A stretch of 64,000 bases of DNA. Source: an uncultured Bacilli bacterium (GTDB lineage Bacteria; Bacillota_I; Bacilli_A; RF39; UBA660). Position numbers and translations under genes: made by a program. Position 1 is the first letter of the stretch, and every line of letters begins with the position of its first letter. The stretch spans positions 1,353 through 65,352 of the forward strand of contig CALVQH010000002.1 of NCBI GenBank assembly GCA_944358115.1. The letters are read 5' to 3'. Shown one piece after another: positions 47,612-51,204 of the stretch. The notes beneath the pieces were generated by a model that saw only the letters and a list, made by a program, of their open reading frames with translations, was not told the origin of the DNA and did no database searches.

Positions 47612-49159
47612 TTACTTCATTTCCCCTAAAATTCTAGTCAAAATGGTAATATTGTCATGTTCTTTAACGTAATTTATCAGATTATAATAATACCTAGTAC
47701 ATCTTTCGTGTAAATCAAATTTTTTATAAAGTAAATCTTCTGCTAAAACTTCCTCATTAGCATAAATAAACATATGAGCCACATACTGATTATATTCTTT
47801 AGAAAGCATAATATAGTATTTTAAATCATTATTATTTATTTCCATAACATTTAATGTTTCAAAATTATCACTATTTTCTACACCAATATCATAGTTATTT
47901 GCTCTTTTGCTAATCTCTTTAATTAATTTATTAATTTTTTTCTTTTCTTTAGCTTTCTCTTTAAATGAAACAAAATATTTCTTTGATTCTAATAAAATAT
48001 TTTTTACTATTTCATCTTGAACAAAAAATTTAGTATTGAAATTAGCAATAGTTAGTTTTACTTCTTGTAATTGACCATTTACTAACATTAATCCTTTAAT
48101 TAATTTTTTATTATCTTTAATAAGAGATAATAAGTCTTTAACTTTTACTTCAACAAACTTTTTAGATTCTCTTCCGTCTTGTTTTAATTGATATAAAGAA
48201 ATGTTATCAACATAAAAATAGTAGTATTGAAATTCGTTTATTTTATATTTTTTCTTTAAAACAAGTTTTTGCTTTCTTTTAGTATAAAATTTAACTTTAT
48301 TTTTAACTAAATCTAATCCAGTTTCTTCTTTTGCCTCTCTAACAAGGCAGGTACTTACACTTTCATTAGCAGTTAAATGACCGCCTACTGTCAATTCGCA
48401 CAAATCTCTAGTAAATACATTATTATGTTTAGCATTTTTGAGTTGCAGATAAATTGTTCTTTTATAAGGATTAATATATATCATATTTACAGTTTTAGCA
48501 TAATAATTAGAATTGTTTAATATTTTTCTTTTATAAATACCTTGATATTTCTCATCAGCATCATAAACATCAATATATTCATCATCACCTTTATCATTTT
48601 TTCTAAAGCCTTTTAAAAAACCAGAAGCATCTTTATACATATCATTAAATTCTTGATTTAAATCCAAGTTATGAGTTTGAGCTACATTAAATACAATTGA
48701 CATCATTTTAGTAATAATACTTATGATAAAATCTTCATGACTTTCGTAATCTTCCCTTTTCTTATAAAACCTTTTATTATTAATCTCCATATTAGCCTCT
48801 ACTAATTGTCCAAATAAAACTGTTAAATCTTCAATATTAGAAGAAGATATAAGATCTTCATCTTGAAAATCATATAAATTTATTTTAATTAAATCAGATA
48901 AAGCAATAAGTTGAAGTATTACATCTGATAATTCATCACCAAGATTATTAATTTTTCTATTTTTCTCACTACAATCTTTATAAAATATATTAAATACATG
49001 AGATATTTGTACAGATAATTCATTTAGAATATCTAATGCTGTCCAATCAAGAATTCTAGTTTTTTTAAATTTATTACTTAAATCCACAGCATTTTTATAA
49101 TTATTATTTAAAAATTGTATATAAACTTCTTTATTCATAGTTGAACTCCTTGCTATCAT
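47612..49159 (-). CDS. MazG-like NTP pyrophosphohydrolase / Nudix hydrolase fusion protein with unknown C-terminal domain
   Basis: 515 aa. The N-terminal all-alpha MazG pattern is ILNELSVQISHVF...NNLGDELSDVILQLIALSDLIKINL. A perfect Nudix box GGHLTANESVSTCLVREAKEETGL lies mid-protein, and the last ~150 aa are unassigned. Confidence 0.7.
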   Translation of the reverse strand: MIARSSTMNKEVYIQFLNNNYKNAVDLSNKFKKTRILDWTALDILNELSVQISHVFNIFYKDCSEKNRKINNLGDELSDVILQLIALSDLIKINLYDFQDEDLISSSNIEDLTVLFGQLVEANMEINNKRFYKKREDYESHEDFIISIITKMMSIVFNVAQTHNLDLNQEFNDMYKDASGFLKGFRKNDKGDDEYIDVYDADEKYQGIYKRKILNNSNYYAKTVNMIYINPYKRTIYLQLKNAKHNNVFTRDLCELTVGGHLTANESVSTCLVREAKEETGLDLVKNKVKFYTKRKQKLVLKKKYKINEFQYYYFYVDNISLYQLKQDGRESKKFVEVKVKDLLSLIKDNKKLIKGLMLVNGQLQEVKLTIANFNTKFFVQDEIVKNILLESKKYFVSFKEKAKEKKKINKLIKEISKRANNYDIGVENSDNFETLNVMEINNNDLKYYIMLSKEYNQYVAHMFIYANEEVLAEDLLYKKFDLHERCTRYYYNLINYVKEHDNITILTRILGEMK

Positions 49160-50258
49160 CTAATATTAAAGGTTTTGCACCATTAGAAATTGAATTGTAT
49201 GTATATTCGCTAATTTTATTAGTTGTAACATATACTCTAATATTTAATAAATATGACAAATAGGATAAATCACTCATTTCTAAATCTACGTTTTTAATTT
49301 CTAAGCCATTATCACTTAAATTATATTTTCTTTGATCAGTATATTTACCTAATTTTCTTAATAGTTGATCGCATTCCTTAGAAACCTCTATAAATTGTAT
49401 TAAATGTCTACCTTTAGCACAAATTCTTCTTTGTTCATCAGAACAAATATTTAATTCTGTACATTCATACGTTCCGTAATAGAAACATGGCTTCTTTAAT
49501 TTAGCACATAATGCACATATATTAGCATGATAAATTTTTTGATTATCATGATATGATCCACCATGAAAATAATCCCAAGCGACTTTTGGATAAACACTCT
49601 CTGCTTGTAAAACTTCTTCTTTATGTGCTTTTATACTATCCCAAAAGCTAATCTTATCAATAAAATTCGGAATCAATTTTAAACCGGTGATCGTGCTGAT
49701 ATCTGTATAAGGATTGACAGTTGCTATTATATCACTTATTTTAGTACTATTTTGTGGTATTAAAGGTCTAAAATAATGAATTGTAGCAATATCAGCAGCT
49801 TTTAAATTTTCAAAATTCTTCAATATGTTTTTATGTTTTACATTTGGTTCTAATTTCTCTAAACCTGAATAACTTAAATAAATAACTTTTTGATTTTTCA
49901 TTGATTTTAATTTATCAATAACATAATTCGGTATTAAACACTTTGTAACAATTATAATTGTATTTAAGACATTTCTTTTTTCTAACTCATCTAATAAAGA
50001 TAAGATATATTTTGTATTACTGTCATTTAAGAAAGCATCTGTTTCCGGCAACAAACATACAGGTATTCTTGGATCATAATAAATAGAATTTAATAACTCA
50101 TCTATTGCTTTATCTGGACTACAAATAATTTCAGGATAAGCACAATTCTTTCCTTCTGATTGTAAAAAACAATATTTACATCTATTATAGCATCCGCGTA
50201 TAGCATTTACTGCTATCCAACTAGCGTGCATTTCAATTATATTTTTCATTAACCCCAC
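49131..50258 (-). CDS. radical SAM enzyme, spore-photoproduct-lyase/COG1533-like
   Basis: 375 aa with the CX3CX2C motif in the context NAIRGCYNRCKYCFLQ. C-terminal Cys-rich patch CALCAKLKKPCFYYGTYECTELNICSDEQRRIC. Overlaps the downstream gene by 29 nt. Confidence 0.7.
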   Translation of the reverse strand: MGLMKNIIEMHASWIAVNAIRGCYNRCKYCFLQSEGKNCAYPEIICSPDKAIDELLNSIYYDPRIPVCLLPETDAFLNDSNTKYILSLLDELEKRNVLNTIIIVTKCLIPNYVIDKLKSMKNQKVIYLSYSGLEKLEPNVKHKNILKNFENLKAADIATIHYFRPLIPQNSTKISDIIATVNPYTDISTITGLKLIPNFIDKISFWDSIKAHKEEVLQAESVYPKVAWDYFHGGSYHDNQKIYHANICALCAKLKKPCFYYGTYECTELNICSDEQRRICAKGRHLIQFIEVSKECDQLLRKLGKYTDQRKYNLSDNGLEIKNVDLEMSDLSYLSYLLNIRVYVTTNKISEYTYNSISNGAKPLILDDSKEFNYE

Positions 50259-50340
50259 TTCGTTTCATGCAAGTTATAATAATTTAAGTGGATTTTAAAG
50301 TAAAGTGAAAGTTTGGCACAAAAAAGGAAAATTTTTCCTT

Positions 50341-51204
50341 TTAGTAATTTTCCTTTATAAAATCAATAAATGTTTGAGTTGATTTTGTTAAATTTTCTTG
50401 ATCGTATAATACACTAATTCTATATTTTAAATCATTCTCTAATGATTTAAAAATAAGTTCTTTTTCTTTAGCAATTTGATAAGGAACAATGCCTGCAACA
50501 GGTTTTTCTTTAATAAAATCAGCTATGGATTCAAAATCAGATAGTTCATACTTAATACAATACTTTATATTATTTTGTTCTAAGTAAGTTGTTATTTTTT
50601 TTCGACAAAAGTTTTCTTTAATTGGAAGAACTATTGGTATAGATTCTAAATTTTCTGTATTTAATTTTGAATTAAAAGCCAAACAATAATTATCTTCAAA
50701 TAAAGGTATTATAATATGTTTGTCATTTTCTTGTTTAATTTCTATTTCATCTATAATTAAATCAATGTTATATTCTCTAATCTTTCTAATAACATCTTTA
50801 TAATTAGAATTTATAAACTTGATTTTTAAATTATTATTTTTATCCATAAAATTATTTAATATATCAGACATATAATACTTTTGAATATCACGAGATATAG
50901 CTAAACTTATCTTACCAAGAGTTATATCTTCTGATTCATTCATTTCCTTTTCAGTTAGCATCAATACATTTAAAGCACGTTTAATTCCACTATAAAGGAT
51001 TTCTCCTGCAGGTGTTAATATGATTCCGGTTTTTTTTGATGAGTTATAGAGTTTTCTTCCAAAATCATCTTCTAATTTACAAAATTGCTTTCTTAAAGCC
51101 GATCTATCTAAATTAAGTTTATCAGCTGCTCTAGTTAATGATCCTTCTTCTACCATCACAGAAAAATTTTTTAATGCTTGTAAACTAGCTGTCTCTATTA
51201 CCAT
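50341..51204 (-). CDS. LysR-family transcriptional regulator
   Basis: 287 aa with N-terminal HTH LQALKNFSVMVEEGSLTRAADKLNLDRSALRKQFCKLEDDFGRKLY and a LysR substrate-binding-size C-terminal part. Confidence 0.85.
   Translation of the reverse strand: MVIETASLQALKNFSVMVEEGSLTRAADKLNLDRSALRKQFCKLEDDFGRKLYNSSKKTGIILTPAGEILYSGIKRALNVLMLTEKEMNESEDITLGKISLAISRDIQKYYMSDILNNFMDKNNNLKIKFINSNYKDVIRKIREYNIDLIIDEIEIKQENDKHIIIPLFEDNYCLAFNSKLNTENLESIPIVLPIKENFCRKKITTYLEQNNIKYCIKYELSDFESIADFIKEKPVAGIVPYQIAKEKELIFKSLENDLKYRISVLYDQENLTKSTQTFIDFIKENY

What the first reader, a model, noticed from the sequence alone, without database searches (positions are those of the whole stretch)
47612..51204. LysR, SPL-like radical-SAM enzyme and MazG-Nudix fusion: candidate nucleotide-modifying (defence?) cassette at the ICE edge
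Seen: a 375-aa ORF carries GCYNRCKYCFLQ (CX3CX2C) and a second Cys-rich patch (CALCAKLKKPCFYYGTYECTELNICSDEQRRIC). It overlaps by 29 nt a 515-aa ORF that fuses a MazG-type segment (LGDELSDVILQLIALSD), a perfect Nudix box (GGHLTANESVSTCLVREAKEETGL) and an unassigned ~150-aa tail. A LysR regulator lies directly upstream, with an AACTATT-N5-AATAGTT inverted repeat at 51274-51292 in its own upstream region, and a terminator follows at 47431-47469. Established: the GC..C.YC(Y/F)LQ context is typical of spore-photoproduct-lyase/COG1533 radical-SAM enzymes acting on DNA or nucleotides. MazG and Nudix domains hydrolyse canonical or modified (d)NTPs. Radical-SAM viperins make chain-terminating nucleotides in antiphage defence. 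Inference: this is a two-enzyme module that generates and/or sanitises a modified nucleotide. Its position on mobile DNA suggests phage defence, anti-defence or DNA modification. I know of no described system with this radical-SAM + double-pyrophosphatase architecture.
Basis: partly seen in the sequence, partly recalled or inferred. Interest (0 to 1): 0.75.

Follow-up and report, generated by a model that had tools for sequence, protein, structure and literature searches.

The report
Uncharacterised radical-SAM plus nucleotide-pyrophosphatase operon
A regulator-controlled pair of genes on a gut-bacterial conjugative element encodes an unnamed radical-SAM enzyme and its near-constant partner, a nucleotide pyrophosphatase fused to a Nudix hydrolase; the pairing recurs in dozens of species, so it probably makes or processes a modified nucleotide, but its biological role is unknown.

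Summary
On the minus strand lie a LysR regulator, a radical-SAM (rSAM) protein and a three-domain protein: MazG-like, Nudix, and a tail of unknown function.

The key test, neighbour conservation, is passed. In 80 species-representative genomes carrying the rSAM, the MazG-like domain is adjacent or fused in 73 and the Nudix is nearby in 59. LysR lies upstream in 43 of 51 low-GC loci. rSAM–MazG fusions occur in both orders. Other relatives are fused to a sugar-phosphate nucleotidyltransferase, TIR, nucleoside deoxyribosyltransferase, HD or a phosphoesterase. All of these partners are nucleotide-handling enzymes.

The rSAM family is small (637 clusters among 1.84 billion). It has no family-specific Pfam, NCBIfam or PADLOC model and no close solved structure. 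"SPL-like" is at best a weak, distant resemblance.

"Defence" is not supported for this locus. There are no PADLOC hits, the neighbours are not defence islands, and some copies sit beside housekeeping suf or dnaK operons. The module has, however, co-diverged with a family of conjugative elements, and distant relatives have immune-type architectures.

Best reading: a LysR-controlled module in which pyrophosphatases and an rSAM together convert a nucleotide or nucleotide-sugar into a modified nucleoside phosphate. The substrate and role are unresolved.

The parts
51232..51260 (-). lysR promoter-like site: TTGACA, 17-nt spacer, TAAAGT with a TG extension
   Evidence: Found by the consensus scan. 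Conserved in the 88%-identical relative L106.
51274..51292 (.). Inverted repeat AACTATT-N5-AATAGTT just upstream of the lysR -35 hexamer
   Evidence: Present in the sequence. Not conserved in L106. Near chance expectation, so probably not a functional operator.
50341..51204 (-). LysR-type transcriptional regulator, 287 aa
   Evidence: Pfam HTH_1 and LysR_substrate, both above cut-off. A LysR homologue lies directly upstream of the rSAM gene in 43 of the 51 low-GC genome loci.
50322..50342 (-). Weak hairpin plus T-run overlapping the lysR stop codon; a possible lysR terminator
   Evidence: Folding energy -6.6 kcal/mol, z = -1.37. Partly degraded in L106. Low confidence.
50276..50320 (-). Conserved intergenic block GTGCCAAACTTTCACTTTACTTT with a promoter-like site (TTTACT, 17-nt spacer, TATTAT). 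Candidate promoter and LysR operator of the rSAM operon.
   Evidence: The intergenic region is 92% identical to L106, with a perfectly conserved 29-nt block, whereas the rSAM proteins are 88% identical. The promoter-like site comes from the scan.
49131..50246 (-). Radical-SAM enzyme of an unnamed family. 372 aa from the ATG at 50246; the maximal ORF runs to the GTG at 50258.
   Evidence: Invariant CX3CX2C motif plus four invariant C-terminal Cys. Model pLDDT 92.4 with an rSAM core fold. 637 clusters in 1.84 billion representative proteins.
48590..49138 (-). MazG-like all-alpha NTP-pyrophosphatase-type domain; N-terminal domain of the second gene
   Evidence: A profile of the domain hits only MazG/DCTPP1-type PDB chains. 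The model shows six helices. Invariant E47, Q51, D75, E76, D79, E121, R130; D177 in at least 90% of sequences. Adjacent to or fused with the rSAM in 73 of 80 genomes.
48080..48574 (-). Nudix hydrolase domain of the YfcD / IPP-isomerase-like subgroup, with a canonical Nudix box
   Evidence: Pfam 38.7 bits. Best structural match is E. coli YfcD (2fkb), target-normalised TM-score 0.75. Present near the rSAM in 59 of 80 genomes.
47612..48079 (-). C-terminal tail of about 155 aa and unknown function: helices, a four-strand beta-meander, then two helices
   Evidence: Model. Found only in the closest relatives. Occurs as a separate 132-aa ORF in L015-L017.
47437..47469 (-). Bulged hairpin plus T-run after the operon; a possible terminator
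   Evidence: Sequence. The wider fold has -9.1 kcal/mol, z = -0.96. Not called by the consensus scan.

Best explanation
This is a self-contained, LysR-controlled transcription unit. It encodes a nucleotide-directed radical-SAM enzyme and its near-constant partner pyrophosphatases.

Proposed mechanism:
1. The MazG-like domain cleaves the alpha-beta phosphoanhydride bond of a nucleoside triphosphate. The Nudix domain does the same for an NTP or an NDP-X compound.
2. The rSAM uses its [4Fe-4S]/SAM site to perform a radical transformation on the sugar or base of the same nucleotide or nucleotide-sugar. A second site of four invariant Cys probably holds an auxiliary cluster or a metal.
3. The net product is a modified nucleoside monophosphate, or a modified sugar phosphate.
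4. The pyrophosphatases act either before the rSAM, supplying its NMP substrate, or after it, converting a reactive NTP analogue to the monophosphate.
5. LysR switches the operon on in response to a small-molecule ligand.

On this conjugative element the module is a long-standing accessory function. Its most likely role is inter-genome conflict or competition, through an antimetabolite-like or signalling nucleotide.

Shown: the domain identities, the intact catalytic motifs, the partnerships and the regulatory layout. Inferred: the substrate class, the order of steps, the product and the biological role.
For: 1. Partnership. In 80 species-representative genomes the MazG-like domain is adjacent to or fused with the rSAM in 73. 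The Nudix lies within about 3.3 kb in 59. This spans gut Bacilli to Actinomycetota at 24-30% identity.

2. Domain fusions.
- rSAM-MazG-like fusions occur in both orders: P0062, P0091 and at least ten other cluster representatives.
- In a Parcubacteria protein, a canonical Pfam MazG domain above its gathering score is fused to the rSAM.
- Two representatives are fused to a sugar-1-phosphate nucleotidyltransferase.

3. Every other fused or linked partner handles nucleotides: TIR, nucleoside 2-deoxyribosyltransferase, HD, calcineurin-like phosphoesterase, APH-type and HprK-like kinases, GalU/RfbF-type transferases, WecB, MurA, dCTP and cytidine deaminases, glycosyltransferases, and a 3'-5' exonuclease.

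4. Catalytic motifs are intact: CX3CX2C and four further Cys are invariant, the Nudix box is canonical, and the DE..D acidic motif of MazG-type enzymes is invariant.

5. Operon structure. There is an 8-nt gene overlap, the operon has its own promoter-like site, and a highly conserved intergenic block lies downstream of lysR.

6. ICE association is ancient. Module identities (rSAM 47-50%, second protein 33-44%) track backbone identities (c2 29-54%, adhesin 27-46%, sortase 39-45%) in 27 genomes.

7. Precedents, from my own knowledge:
- OxsB with OxsA: an rSAM plus a nucleotide phosphohydrolase, plasmid-borne.
- Viperins acting on NTPs.
- Pur7 and TunN: Nudix enzymes in nucleoside-antibiotic pathways.
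- T4 gp56 and MazZ: MazG-type enzymes that feed nucleotide-modifying enzymes.
Against: - No biochemical data exist for any member. The substrate is inferred only from the partners.
- The first metal-binding motif of MazG enzymes (ExxE) is replaced here by Q51..H54. The MazG-like domain might therefore bind rather than hydrolyse, or use a different substrate.
- Two pyrophosphatases in one minimal module are not obviously both needed.
- The conflict role is weak for this branch. There are no PADLOC hits, neighbourhoods are not defence islands, there are no phage homologues, and chromosomal copies sit beside suf and dnaK operons.
- LysR control is more typical of metabolism than of immunity.
- Linked genes in other lineages (nucleotidyltransferase, WecB, MurA, glycosyltransferases, an ABC-2 exporter, a teichoic-acid-type cluster) point equally to glycan or natural-product biosynthesis.
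Confidence: 0.5

Rival explanations
1. Viperin-like immune or competition module. The rSAM converts an NTP into a chain-terminating or otherwise toxic analogue that blocks phage or rival-element replication. The MazG-like and Nudix domains limit self-poisoning.
For: - Distant family members are fused to TIR (three representatives), TCAD9+APH, and DUF4062+HD.
- One TIR-rSAM gene sits beside a TIR-WD40 protein and a Ras-like GTPase.
- On Labrenzia and Streptomyces plasmids the rSAM is followed by a 3'-5' exonuclease and a small AAA ATPase. In Labrenzia an HD protein follows as well, and the cluster lies next to an N6 methylase.
- An Abi_2 gene is inserted between lysR and the rSAM gene in at least five related loci.
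- The module is carried on ICEs and plasmids.
- Viperins are among the structural matches, at E of about 1e-3.
Against: - None of the three proteins has a meaningful PADLOC hit.
- The 150 neighbours in 16 loci are not defence-rich.
- Viperin is no closer structurally than HydE, SkfB or NifB.
- Chromosomal housekeeping contexts and a LysR regulator argue against it.
- The TIR-fused proteins belong to a distant branch.
Confidence: 0.2
2. Nucleotide-sugar, glycan or nucleoside natural-product tailoring. The rSAM acts on an NDP-sugar or an enolpyruvyl or glycosyl nucleotide, as PolH/NikJ or TunB do. The pyrophosphatases release or recycle the nucleotide carrier. The ICE copy is a pared-down version.
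For: - Nucleotidyltransferase-rSAM fusions exist.
- Actinomycetes carry a seven-gene operon: rSAM, MazG-like, a kinase-like protein, an HprK-like P-loop protein, a GalU-like transferase, Nudix and WecB.
- Streptomyces plasmids carry GT4, class II aldolase, MurA and then the rSAM.
- The pFRL6-type cluster carries UDP-glucose pyrophosphorylase, the rSAM, a 515-aa glycosyltransferase and a HAD hydrolase.
- L103 carries a GT2, a histidine phosphatase and an ABC-2 exporter.
- L104 places the rSAM inside a teichoic-acid/rhamnan-type cluster.
Against: - The window's module and most Bacilli copies have no glycosyltransferase, nucleotidyltransferase or exporter.
- The one near-constant partner is the NTP-pyrophosphatase-type domain, not a sugar enzyme.
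- No NCBIfam model for a characterised rSAM family was matched above its cut-off; the only weak rSAM hits were to uncharacterised COG1533-type and B12-type families.
Confidence: 0.17
3. DNA hypermodification for anti-restriction. The module changes the nucleotide pool, or the element's DNA, so that the transferred DNA escapes restriction, as phage MazG-type dNTPases do in base-replacement pathways.
For: - The pFRL6-type cluster combines MazG, two dCTP-deaminase-like genes, a cytidine deaminase, a methyltransferase, UDP-glucose pyrophosphorylase, the rSAM and a glycosyltransferase, directly beside Tra genes.
- The window's module sits on an ICE next to the conjugation genes.
Against: - There are no homologues in 50,697 phage genomes, and no close structural relative among viral proteins.
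- The minimal module has no DNA-binding domain, base-exchange enzyme or kinase.
- Pool-level modification would also alter the host chromosome.
- Chromosomal copies lie beside housekeeping operons.
Confidence: 0.07
4. Peptide (RiPP) maturase. The rSAM modifies a small peptide, with kinase and nucleotidyltransferase tailoring as in phosphorylated or glycosylated lasso peptides.
For: - Structural matches include SkfB, SuiB and anSME.
- The linked P-loop protein weakly resembles HprK-related kinase B and ScmC.
- Small ORFs lie nearby (c16 of 80 aa, c61 of 75 aa).
Against: - No SPASM or twitch motif spacing, no RRE/PqqD domain, and no conserved precursor gene beside the rSAM.
- The structural matches cover only the generic core of about 200 residues.
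- Near-constant pairing with nucleotide enzymes has no place in this model.
Confidence: 0.04

Closest known systems
OxsB/OxsA (oxetanocin A biosynthesis, Bacillus megaterium plasmid); from my own knowledge
   Same: A radical-SAM enzyme works together with a nucleotide phosphohydrolase on a nucleoside phosphate to give a modified nucleoside. The genes are on a mobile replicon.
   Different: OxsB has a cobalamin-binding domain and OxsA is an HD-domain enzyme. Here there is no B12 domain, and the partners are a MazG-like domain and a Nudix domain. No sequence or close structural relationship was found.
Viperin / prokaryotic viperins (pVips)
   Same: An rSAM enzyme with an N-terminal CX3CX2C motif and a partial TIM barrel, acting on NTPs and linked to nucleotide-metabolism genes. 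Viperin structures are among the matches (E about 1e-3, query-normalised TM-score about 0.38).
   Different: It is no closer to viperin than to HydE, SkfB, NifB or PFL-AE. There is no PADLOC hit. This family has an extra C-terminal region of about 170 aa with four invariant Cys. Its near-constant partner is a pyrophosphatase rather than a kinase.
Spore photoproduct lyase / COG1533 families (PA0069, Rv2578c)
   Same: The local cluster-motif context GC..C.YCFLQ is shared. The best, weak, NCBIfam rSAM matches for an actinomycete homologue are to PA0069 and Rv2578c models. A 22-residue PDB match to SPL has E=0.89.
   Different: Scores are far below the cut-offs (26 against 360 bits). SPL is not in the top 50 structural matches. 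There is no sporulation context. The motif lies at residue 23 here, against residue 113 onward of the SPL chain.
MazG / DCTPP1 (RS21-C6) all-alpha NTP pyrophosphohydrolases, including phage T4 gp56 and MazZ
   Same: The fold is all-helical, and the invariant D75-E76-x-x-D79 aligns with the E-x-x-D metal motif of DCTPP1. Like the phage enzymes, it is genetically coupled to a nucleotide-modifying enzyme.
   Different: No Pfam MazG hit. The domain is about 185 aa rather than about 100. The first ExxE motif is replaced by Q..H. Activity is untested.
E. coli YfcD / type 1 IPP isomerase subgroup of the Nudix superfamily
   Same: Best structural match is 2fkb (YfcD), target-normalised TM-score 0.75, followed by IPP isomerases. 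There are weak NCBIfam hits to YfcD and IDI models. The same N-terminal extension precedes the Nudix fold.
   Different: It keeps a full hydrolase-type Nudix box, unlike IPP isomerase. It is fused to a MazG-like domain and a novel tail. YfcD itself has no known substrate.
PolH/NikJ with NikO, and TunB with TunN/TunG (high-carbon nucleoside antibiotics); from my own knowledge
   Same: An rSAM acts on a uridine nucleotide or nucleoside and is linked to a MurA-type enolpyruvyl transferase, or to Nudix/HAD enzymes and a glycosyltransferase. Streptomyces relatives of this rSAM sit beside MurA, or beside UGPase-GT-HAD.
   Different: I could not compare sequences with PolH, NikJ or TunB directly. The Bacilli/ICE module has none of the sugar enzymes.

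Membership tests
Radical SAM superfamily | CX3CX2C motif that binds the [4Fe-4S] cluster | tested here: met
   C23, C27 and C30 are invariant in 39 homologues and in 27 distant fusion proteins.
Radical SAM superfamily | Partial TIM-barrel core fold | tested here: met
   Model pLDDT 92.4. Foldseek probability 1.0 to HydE, SkfB, NifB, PFL-AE, viperin and LipA over about 200 residues.
Radical SAM superfamily | Pfam PF04055 gathering score | tested here: inconclusive
   The window protein scores 21.4 bits against 29.5. The homologue in L072 scores 30.9. Most database homologues carry a precomputed PF04055 hit.
Radical SAM superfamily | Reductive cleavage of SAM | not testable with these tools
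   Needs anaerobic biochemistry.
Spore photoproduct lyase / COG1533 | Sequence membership in SplB, PA0069 or Rv2578c models | tested here: not met
   The best hits are 16-26 bits against cut-offs of 360-430. PDB SPL matches at E=0.89 over 22 residues.
Spore photoproduct lyase / COG1533 | Closest structural neighbour is SPL | tested here: not met
   SPL is absent from the top 50 PDB matches.
Spore photoproduct lyase / COG1533 | Sporulation or DNA-repair genomic context | tested here: not met
   The contexts are an ICE, suf and dnaK neighbourhoods, and nucleotide-sugar operons. The family occurs in Actinomycetota and Parcubacteria.
Prokaryotic viperin (pVip) defence | Match to pVip or other defence models | tested here: not met
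   PADLOC gives no family for the rSAM.
Prokaryotic viperin (pVip) defence | Specific structural similarity to viperin | tested here: not met
   Viperin matches at E about 1e-3 and query-normalised TM-score about 0.38, ranked below HydE, SkfB, NifB and PFL-AE.
MazG / all-alpha NTP pyrophosphohydrolase superfamily | Profile-level sequence similarity | tested here: inconclusive
   No Pfam MazG hit for the window protein. All seven PDB hits of the domain profile belong to this superfamily, the best at E=0.0027. A canonical MazG occupies the same fused position in P0203.
MazG / all-alpha NTP pyrophosphohydrolase superfamily | Two acidic metal-binding motifs (ExxE and ExxD) | tested here: inconclusive
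   D75-E76-x-x-D79 is invariant. The first motif reads Q51..H54, with an invariant E47 one helical turn earlier.
MazG / all-alpha NTP pyrophosphohydrolase superfamily | All-helical fold | tested here: met
   Six helices at residues 10-184 with pLDDT mostly above 85. No domain-specific fold search was run.
Nudix hydrolase | Pfam PF00293 above the gathering score | tested here: met
   38.7 bits against 21.1.
Nudix hydrolase | Nudix box GX5EX7REUXEEXGU | tested here: met
   GHLTANE SVSTCLV RE A K EE T G L, read from the sequence.
Nudix hydrolase | Nudix alpha/beta/alpha fold | tested here: met
   Foldseek match to YfcD (2fkb) at E=3.6e-7, target-normalised TM-score 0.75.
LysR-type transcriptional regulator | N-terminal HTH_1 plus LysR substrate-binding domain | tested here: met
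   48.6 and 62.5 bits, both above cut-off.
LysR-type transcriptional regulator | Binding to an operator at the regulated promoter | not testable with these tools
   The candidate is a conserved block at 50276-50320. The inverted repeat upstream of lysR is not conserved.
Known anti-phage defence systems (PADLOC 2.0) | Component models or defence-island neighbourhood | tested here: not met
   The only hit is a 29-residue match of the Nudix box to PDC-S07 at E=0.0035. Among 150 neighbours, no family matched more than 3 proteins, and the top hits are SufS-like, a methyltransferase and WYL.

The most novel reading that the evidence does not exclude
This is the founding example of an unrecognised, cross-phylum family of radical-SAM enzymes that are almost always paired with an NTP pyrophosphatase. 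They would make a new class of modified nucleotide used in inter-genome conflict: as an immune effector in the TIR-, TCAD9- and DUF4062-fused forms, and as a stably inherited weapon or shield on gut conjugative elements and actinomycete plasmids.
Probability: 0.22. Interest if true: 0.85.

Novelty: new variant of a known kind. Interest (0 to 1): 0.62.

Why it matters
Radical-SAM enzymes that act on nucleotides, such as viperin, OxsB, QueE and MoaA, have repeatedly yielded new chemistry, antivirals and cofactors.

This family has three features that make it a good target:
- It has no family-specific model in Pfam, NCBIfam or PADLOC, so it is effectively uncharacterised.
- It comes with unusually clean genomic clues to its substrate. 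The partner pyrophosphatase is fused in both orders, and every other linked enzyme handles nucleotides or nucleotide-sugars.
- It is a stable passenger of conjugative elements that circulate widely in animal and human gut metagenomes. The exact rSAM protein was seen on about 120 contigs.

Natural single-chain fusions such as P0062 make in vitro work direct. If the product is an antimetabolite or a signal, it would reveal a new way for mobile elements to manipulate hosts or rivals. If the role is metabolic, it would fill a gap in anaerobe nucleotide metabolism.

Tried and rejected
- Single-sequence and profile searches of the rSAM against PDB sequences gave nothing useful. The hits were an SMC protein, a designed TIM barrel, and SPL at E=0.89.
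- Foldseek against the PDB and against viral structure models gave only generic rSAM cores. I therefore dropped the idea of a close SPL, viperin or phage relative.
- tblastn against 50,697 phage genomes found no match. The three full-length rSAM hits in IMG/VR were not examined; they may be misclassified ICEs.
- Six literature searches found no description of this family: rSAM with MazG and Nudix; DNA modification and conjugative; TIR and conflict systems; nucleotide-centric; queuine lyase; anti-phage. The search for 'ScmC' returned only unrelated acronyms.
- The one relevant paper, eLife 2020 (PMC7159879), mentions a different rSAM effector.
- I considered queuine lyase (QueL) and PolH, NikJ, TunB and BlsE as relatives. 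I could not obtain their sequences, so these stay as analogies only.
- I rejected the inverted repeat as a LysR operator because it is not conserved.
- I rejected 'defence island' for the low-GC loci after the PADLOC scan of neighbours.
- The tail domain and the downstream ICE gene c2 (156 aa) gave no informative Pfam hits.
- The third homologue search, with the MazG-like domain alone, added few sequences.

Full report
**1. What is in the window**

Three co-oriented minus-strand ORFs are present as described: LysR (50341-51204), a 375-aa Cys-rich protein (49131-50258) and a 515-aa protein (47612-49159).

LysR has both defining Pfam domains.

The 375-aa protein gets only a sub-threshold Radical_SAM hit (21.4 bits against 29.5) and no sequence relative in the PDB. 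Its CX3CX2C motif is invariant across 39 homologues, as are four further cysteines (C248, C266, C272, C280) and an N-terminal H..W pair. An AlphaFold2 model built on that alignment is confident (pLDDT 92.4, pTM 0.91). Over about 200 residues it matches rSAM cores with probability 1.0 but only moderate TM-scores (0.36-0.42): HydE, SkfB, NifB, PFL-AE, viperin and LipA. No specific neighbour stands out, and spore photoproduct lyase (SPL) is not in the top 50.

The 515-aa protein has three parts.
- Residues 8-190 are a helical domain.
- Residues 196-360 are a Nudix domain (Pfam 38.7 bits) with a textbook Nudix box. Its closest structures are E. coli YfcD and IPP isomerases.
- The last ~155 residues are a tail with no detectable relatives outside close homologues.

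The helical domain has no Pfam hit. A 30-sequence profile of it retrieves only all-alpha NTP pyrophosphohydrolases from the PDB: 4qgp at E=0.0027, then 5ie9 and DCTPP1/RS21-C6. The invariant D75-E76-x-x-D79 aligns with the ExxD metal motif. The first ExxE motif is replaced by Q51..H54.

**2. Local anatomy**

- The database versions and the ribosome-binding sites indicate starts at 50246 (372 aa) and 49138 (508 aa), which gives an 8-nt overlap.
- lysR has its own promoter-like site and a weak hairpin at its stop codon.
- The 92-nt lysR-rSAM spacer contains a promoter-like site and a 29-nt block that is perfectly conserved in an element whose rSAM protein is only 88% identical. This is the best candidate for the LysR-controlled promoter.
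- The inverted repeat reported upstream of lysR exists but is not conserved in that relative. It is about what chance would give in DNA this AT-rich.
- The downstream 'terminator' is a bulged hairpin with a T-run and an unremarkable folding energy.

**3. Conservation of the module**

A scan of one genome per species found 96 encoding loci, of which 80 were kept. They come from gut Bacilli, 'Tenericutes' and Clostridia MAGs and from Actinomycetota such as Streptomyces, Saccharopolyspora, Pseudonocardiaceae and Actinosynnema. BLAST and HMM labelling of all ORFs in these loci gave the following:

| Partner | Position relative to the rSAM | Loci |
|---|---|---|
| MazG-like domain | adjacent or fused | 73 of 80 |
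| Nudix | fused to the MazG-like domain, or a separate ~210-aa gene within ~3.3 kb | 59 of 80 |
| LysR | immediately upstream | 43 of 51 low-GC loci |

Most loci that lack an adjacent MazG-like domain are either truncated contigs or the Streptomyces pFRL6-type cluster. In pFRL6 and its relative L085 a canonical MazG gene lies about 6 kb upstream.

Fusions of the rSAM and the MazG-like domain occur in both orders (P0062, P0091).

An exhaustive profile search of 1.84 billion cluster representatives shows that the family is small: 637 at E<=1e-3 and 132 at E<=1e-30. It is rich in fusions:
- at least 12 rSAM/MazG-like fusions;
- two with a sugar-1-phosphate nucleotidyltransferase;
- three with TIR;
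- single cases with nucleoside 2-deoxyribosyltransferase, TCAD9+APH, DUF4062+HD and a calcineurin-like phosphoesterase;
- one with a canonical Pfam MazG domain above its gathering score, from a Parcubacteria genome.

**4. Recurrent architectures**

- **(A) ICE type, as in the window.** The order is LysR, rSAM, MazG-like+Nudix(+tail), then a 156-aa protein (c2), small ORFs, a SpaA-type adhesin, a sortase and type IV secretion genes.
  - c2 follows the module in 27 genomes, and the adhesin is present in 18.
  - Module identities to the window (rSAM 47-50%, second protein 33-44%, LysR 25-32%) parallel those of the backbone (c2 29-54%, adhesin 27-46%, sortase 39-45%). The module has therefore co-diverged with this ICE family and is not recent cargo.
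  - Genes upstream of lysR vary. In at least five loci an Abi_2 gene (154 bits) sits between lysR and the rSAM gene.
- **(B) Chromosomal, beside suf.** LysR, rSAM, MazG-like and Nudix lie directly upstream of genes that by inspection are sufC, sufD, sufS and sufU.
- **(C) Chromosomal, beside dnaK.** LysR, the rSAM::MazG-like fusion, an HprK-like P-loop protein and Nudix lie beside hrcA-grpE-dnaK-dnaJ.
- **(D) Actinomycete seven-gene operon.** rSAM, MazG-like, a kinase-like protein, the HprK-like P-loop protein, a GalU-like nucleotidyltransferase, Nudix and a WecB-type UDP-GlcNAc 2-epimerase (274 bits, above cut-off).
- **(E) Streptomyces, mostly on linear plasmids.** Two types occur.
  - One has a P-loop protein, two dCTP-deaminase-like genes, a cytidine deaminase, a methyltransferase, UDP-glucose pyrophosphorylase, the rSAM, a 515-aa glycosyltransferase and a HAD hydrolase. 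A MazG gene lies upstream in pFRL6 and in one relative, and in pFRL6 the cluster sits next to Tra genes.
  - The other has GT4, class II aldolase, MurA and the rSAM, followed in different plasmids by a 3'-5' exonuclease, an AAA ATPase or a Nudix gene.
- **(F) Alphaproteobacterial plasmids.** rSAM (24% identical), 3'-5' exonuclease, AAA ATPase and an HD protein, beside an N6 methylase.
- **(G) Others.** A nucleotidyltransferase-rSAM fusion lies with a GT2, a histidine phosphatase and an ABC-2 exporter. A DUF4062-rSAM-HD protein lies inside a teichoic-acid/rhamnan-type cluster. A TIR-rSAM protein lies beside a TIR-WD40 protein and a Ras-like GTPase.

**5. Interpretation**

The one near-constant feature is the rSAM paired with an NTP-pyrophosphatase-type domain. 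Every variable partner acts on nucleotides or nucleotide-sugars. The most economical reading is that the rSAM transforms a nucleotide or a nucleotide-activated sugar, and that the MazG-like and Nudix domains cleave the pyrophosphate linkage before or after that step.

Both orders have precedent, from my own knowledge. T4 gp56, MazZ and TunN supply monophosphates to modifying enzymes. Pur7 and OxsA convert modified triphosphates downstream of the modifying step. LysR then ties expression to a small-molecule cue.

I put 0.5 on this general mechanism. The role is unresolved among four options:
- conflict or antimetabolite, favoured by the immune-type fusions, Abi_2, the exonuclease/HD contexts and carriage on mobile elements;
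- glycan or natural-product tailoring, favoured by the sugar-nucleotide genes;
- DNA hypermodification, suggested by the pFRL6 cluster but weakened by the absence from phages and by the lack of any DNA-directed component;
- a peptide maturase, which is least likely.

For the window's branch, defence is not supported. None of the three proteins has a meaningful PADLOC hit. Among 150 neighbours from 16 diverse low-GC loci, no defence family matched more than three proteins, and the strongest hits are housekeeping look-alikes such as SufS matching SspA/DndA.

**6. Comparison with known systems and novelty**

The protein belongs to the radical-SAM superfamily by motif and fold. It is not a demonstrable member of SPL/COG1533: scores are 16-26 bits against cut-offs of 360-430, and SPL is absent from the structural top 50. 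It is not a viperin either.

The second protein is a true Nudix of the YfcD/IDI-like subgroup, fused to a divergent MazG-like domain.

No specific model in Pfam, NCBIfam or PADLOC covers the rSAM family or the MazG-like domain. No database entry carries an informative name. No paper describing the family was found.

I class it as a new variant of a known kind, namely nucleotide-directed radical-SAM systems with accessory phosphohydrolases. It has a realistic chance of being something more distinctive.

**7. Limits**

- All functional statements are inferences from sequence, predicted structure and gene context.
- ORF calling in the high-GC loci was crude (longest ORFs). Conclusions there rest on homology labels and on RefSeq annotation of plasmids.
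- The PLSDB annotation tables are incomplete.
- The genome set is dominated by MAGs, so calling a copy 'chromosomal' relies on the neighbouring housekeeping genes.

Noticed in passing
window 56866-59353: A 569-aa protein with two ABC ATPase domains and an ABC_tran_Xtn linker (ABC-F type) lies next to a 258-aa APH-family phosphotransferase. This is possible antibiotic-resistance cargo on the same element. The Pfam labels come from the identical contig L001.
   Followed up: no
window 53418-56166: A cluster of three XRE-type regulators, each with two HTH domains (157, 166 and 178 aa), is interleaved with small unknown ORFs. It may be the ICE's immunity or regulation region. It lies between the module and the resistance genes.
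   Followed up: partly
window 47560-47600: Two perfect 18-nt direct repeats, GAAAAAATACCATAAAAT (minus strand, 47583-47600 and 47560-47577), lie just after the stop codon of the second gene and upstream of the hairpin.
   Followed up: no
L024 8946-9815 (also L025, L027, L033, L046): In some related ICEs an Abi_2 (abortive-infection-like) gene is inserted between lysR and the rSAM gene (Pfam 154 bits). This junction therefore tolerates or attracts accessory genes.
   Followed up: partly
L093 (Streptomyces plasmid pFRL6) 2945-12337; also L085, L087, L088, L101: A conserved Streptomyces cluster comprises a P-loop protein, two dCTP-deaminase-like genes, a cytidine deaminase, a SAM methyltransferase, UDP-glucose pyrophosphorylase, this rSAM, a 515-aa glycosyltransferase and a HAD hydrolase. 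A MazG gene lies upstream in pFRL6 and L085. In pFRL6 the cluster abuts Tra genes. It looks like a pyrimidine-nucleotide modification or nucleoside-antibiotic pathway.
   Followed up: partly
L102 5832-10178: A TIR-rSAM fusion (725 aa) from the same rSAM family is followed by a TIR-WD40 protein and a Ras-like GTPase. This is an immune or conflict-type arrangement.
   Followed up: partly
L036 10573-13671 (and about 10 similar loci): In one chromosomal variant the LysR-rSAM-MazG-like-Nudix block lies directly upstream of, and co-oriented with, genes that look like sufC, sufD, sufS and sufU for Fe-S cluster assembly. This may be functional linkage for an Fe-S enzyme, or simply shared synteny in one clade.
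   Followed up: no
window 46821-47291: The 156-aa protein (c2) that follows the module in 27 genomes has no Pfam match. Its C-terminus resembles that of another ICE protein (c63) and looks like an HTH or sigma region 4. It may be the transcription factor for the conjugation operon. A strong promoter-like site (11 of 12 matches) lies at 47346-47374.
   Followed up: partly
window 13056-14933, 16864-19176, 33945-36389, 42056-45668: ICE backbone genes: a large serine recombinase, a type IV coupling protein, a VirB4-like ATPase, a 999-aa SpaA-type adhesin and a sortase. The exact rSAM, second-gene and LysR proteins recur on about 11-127 metagenome contigs each (rSAM about 120), so near-identical copies of the module are widespread.
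   Followed up: partly
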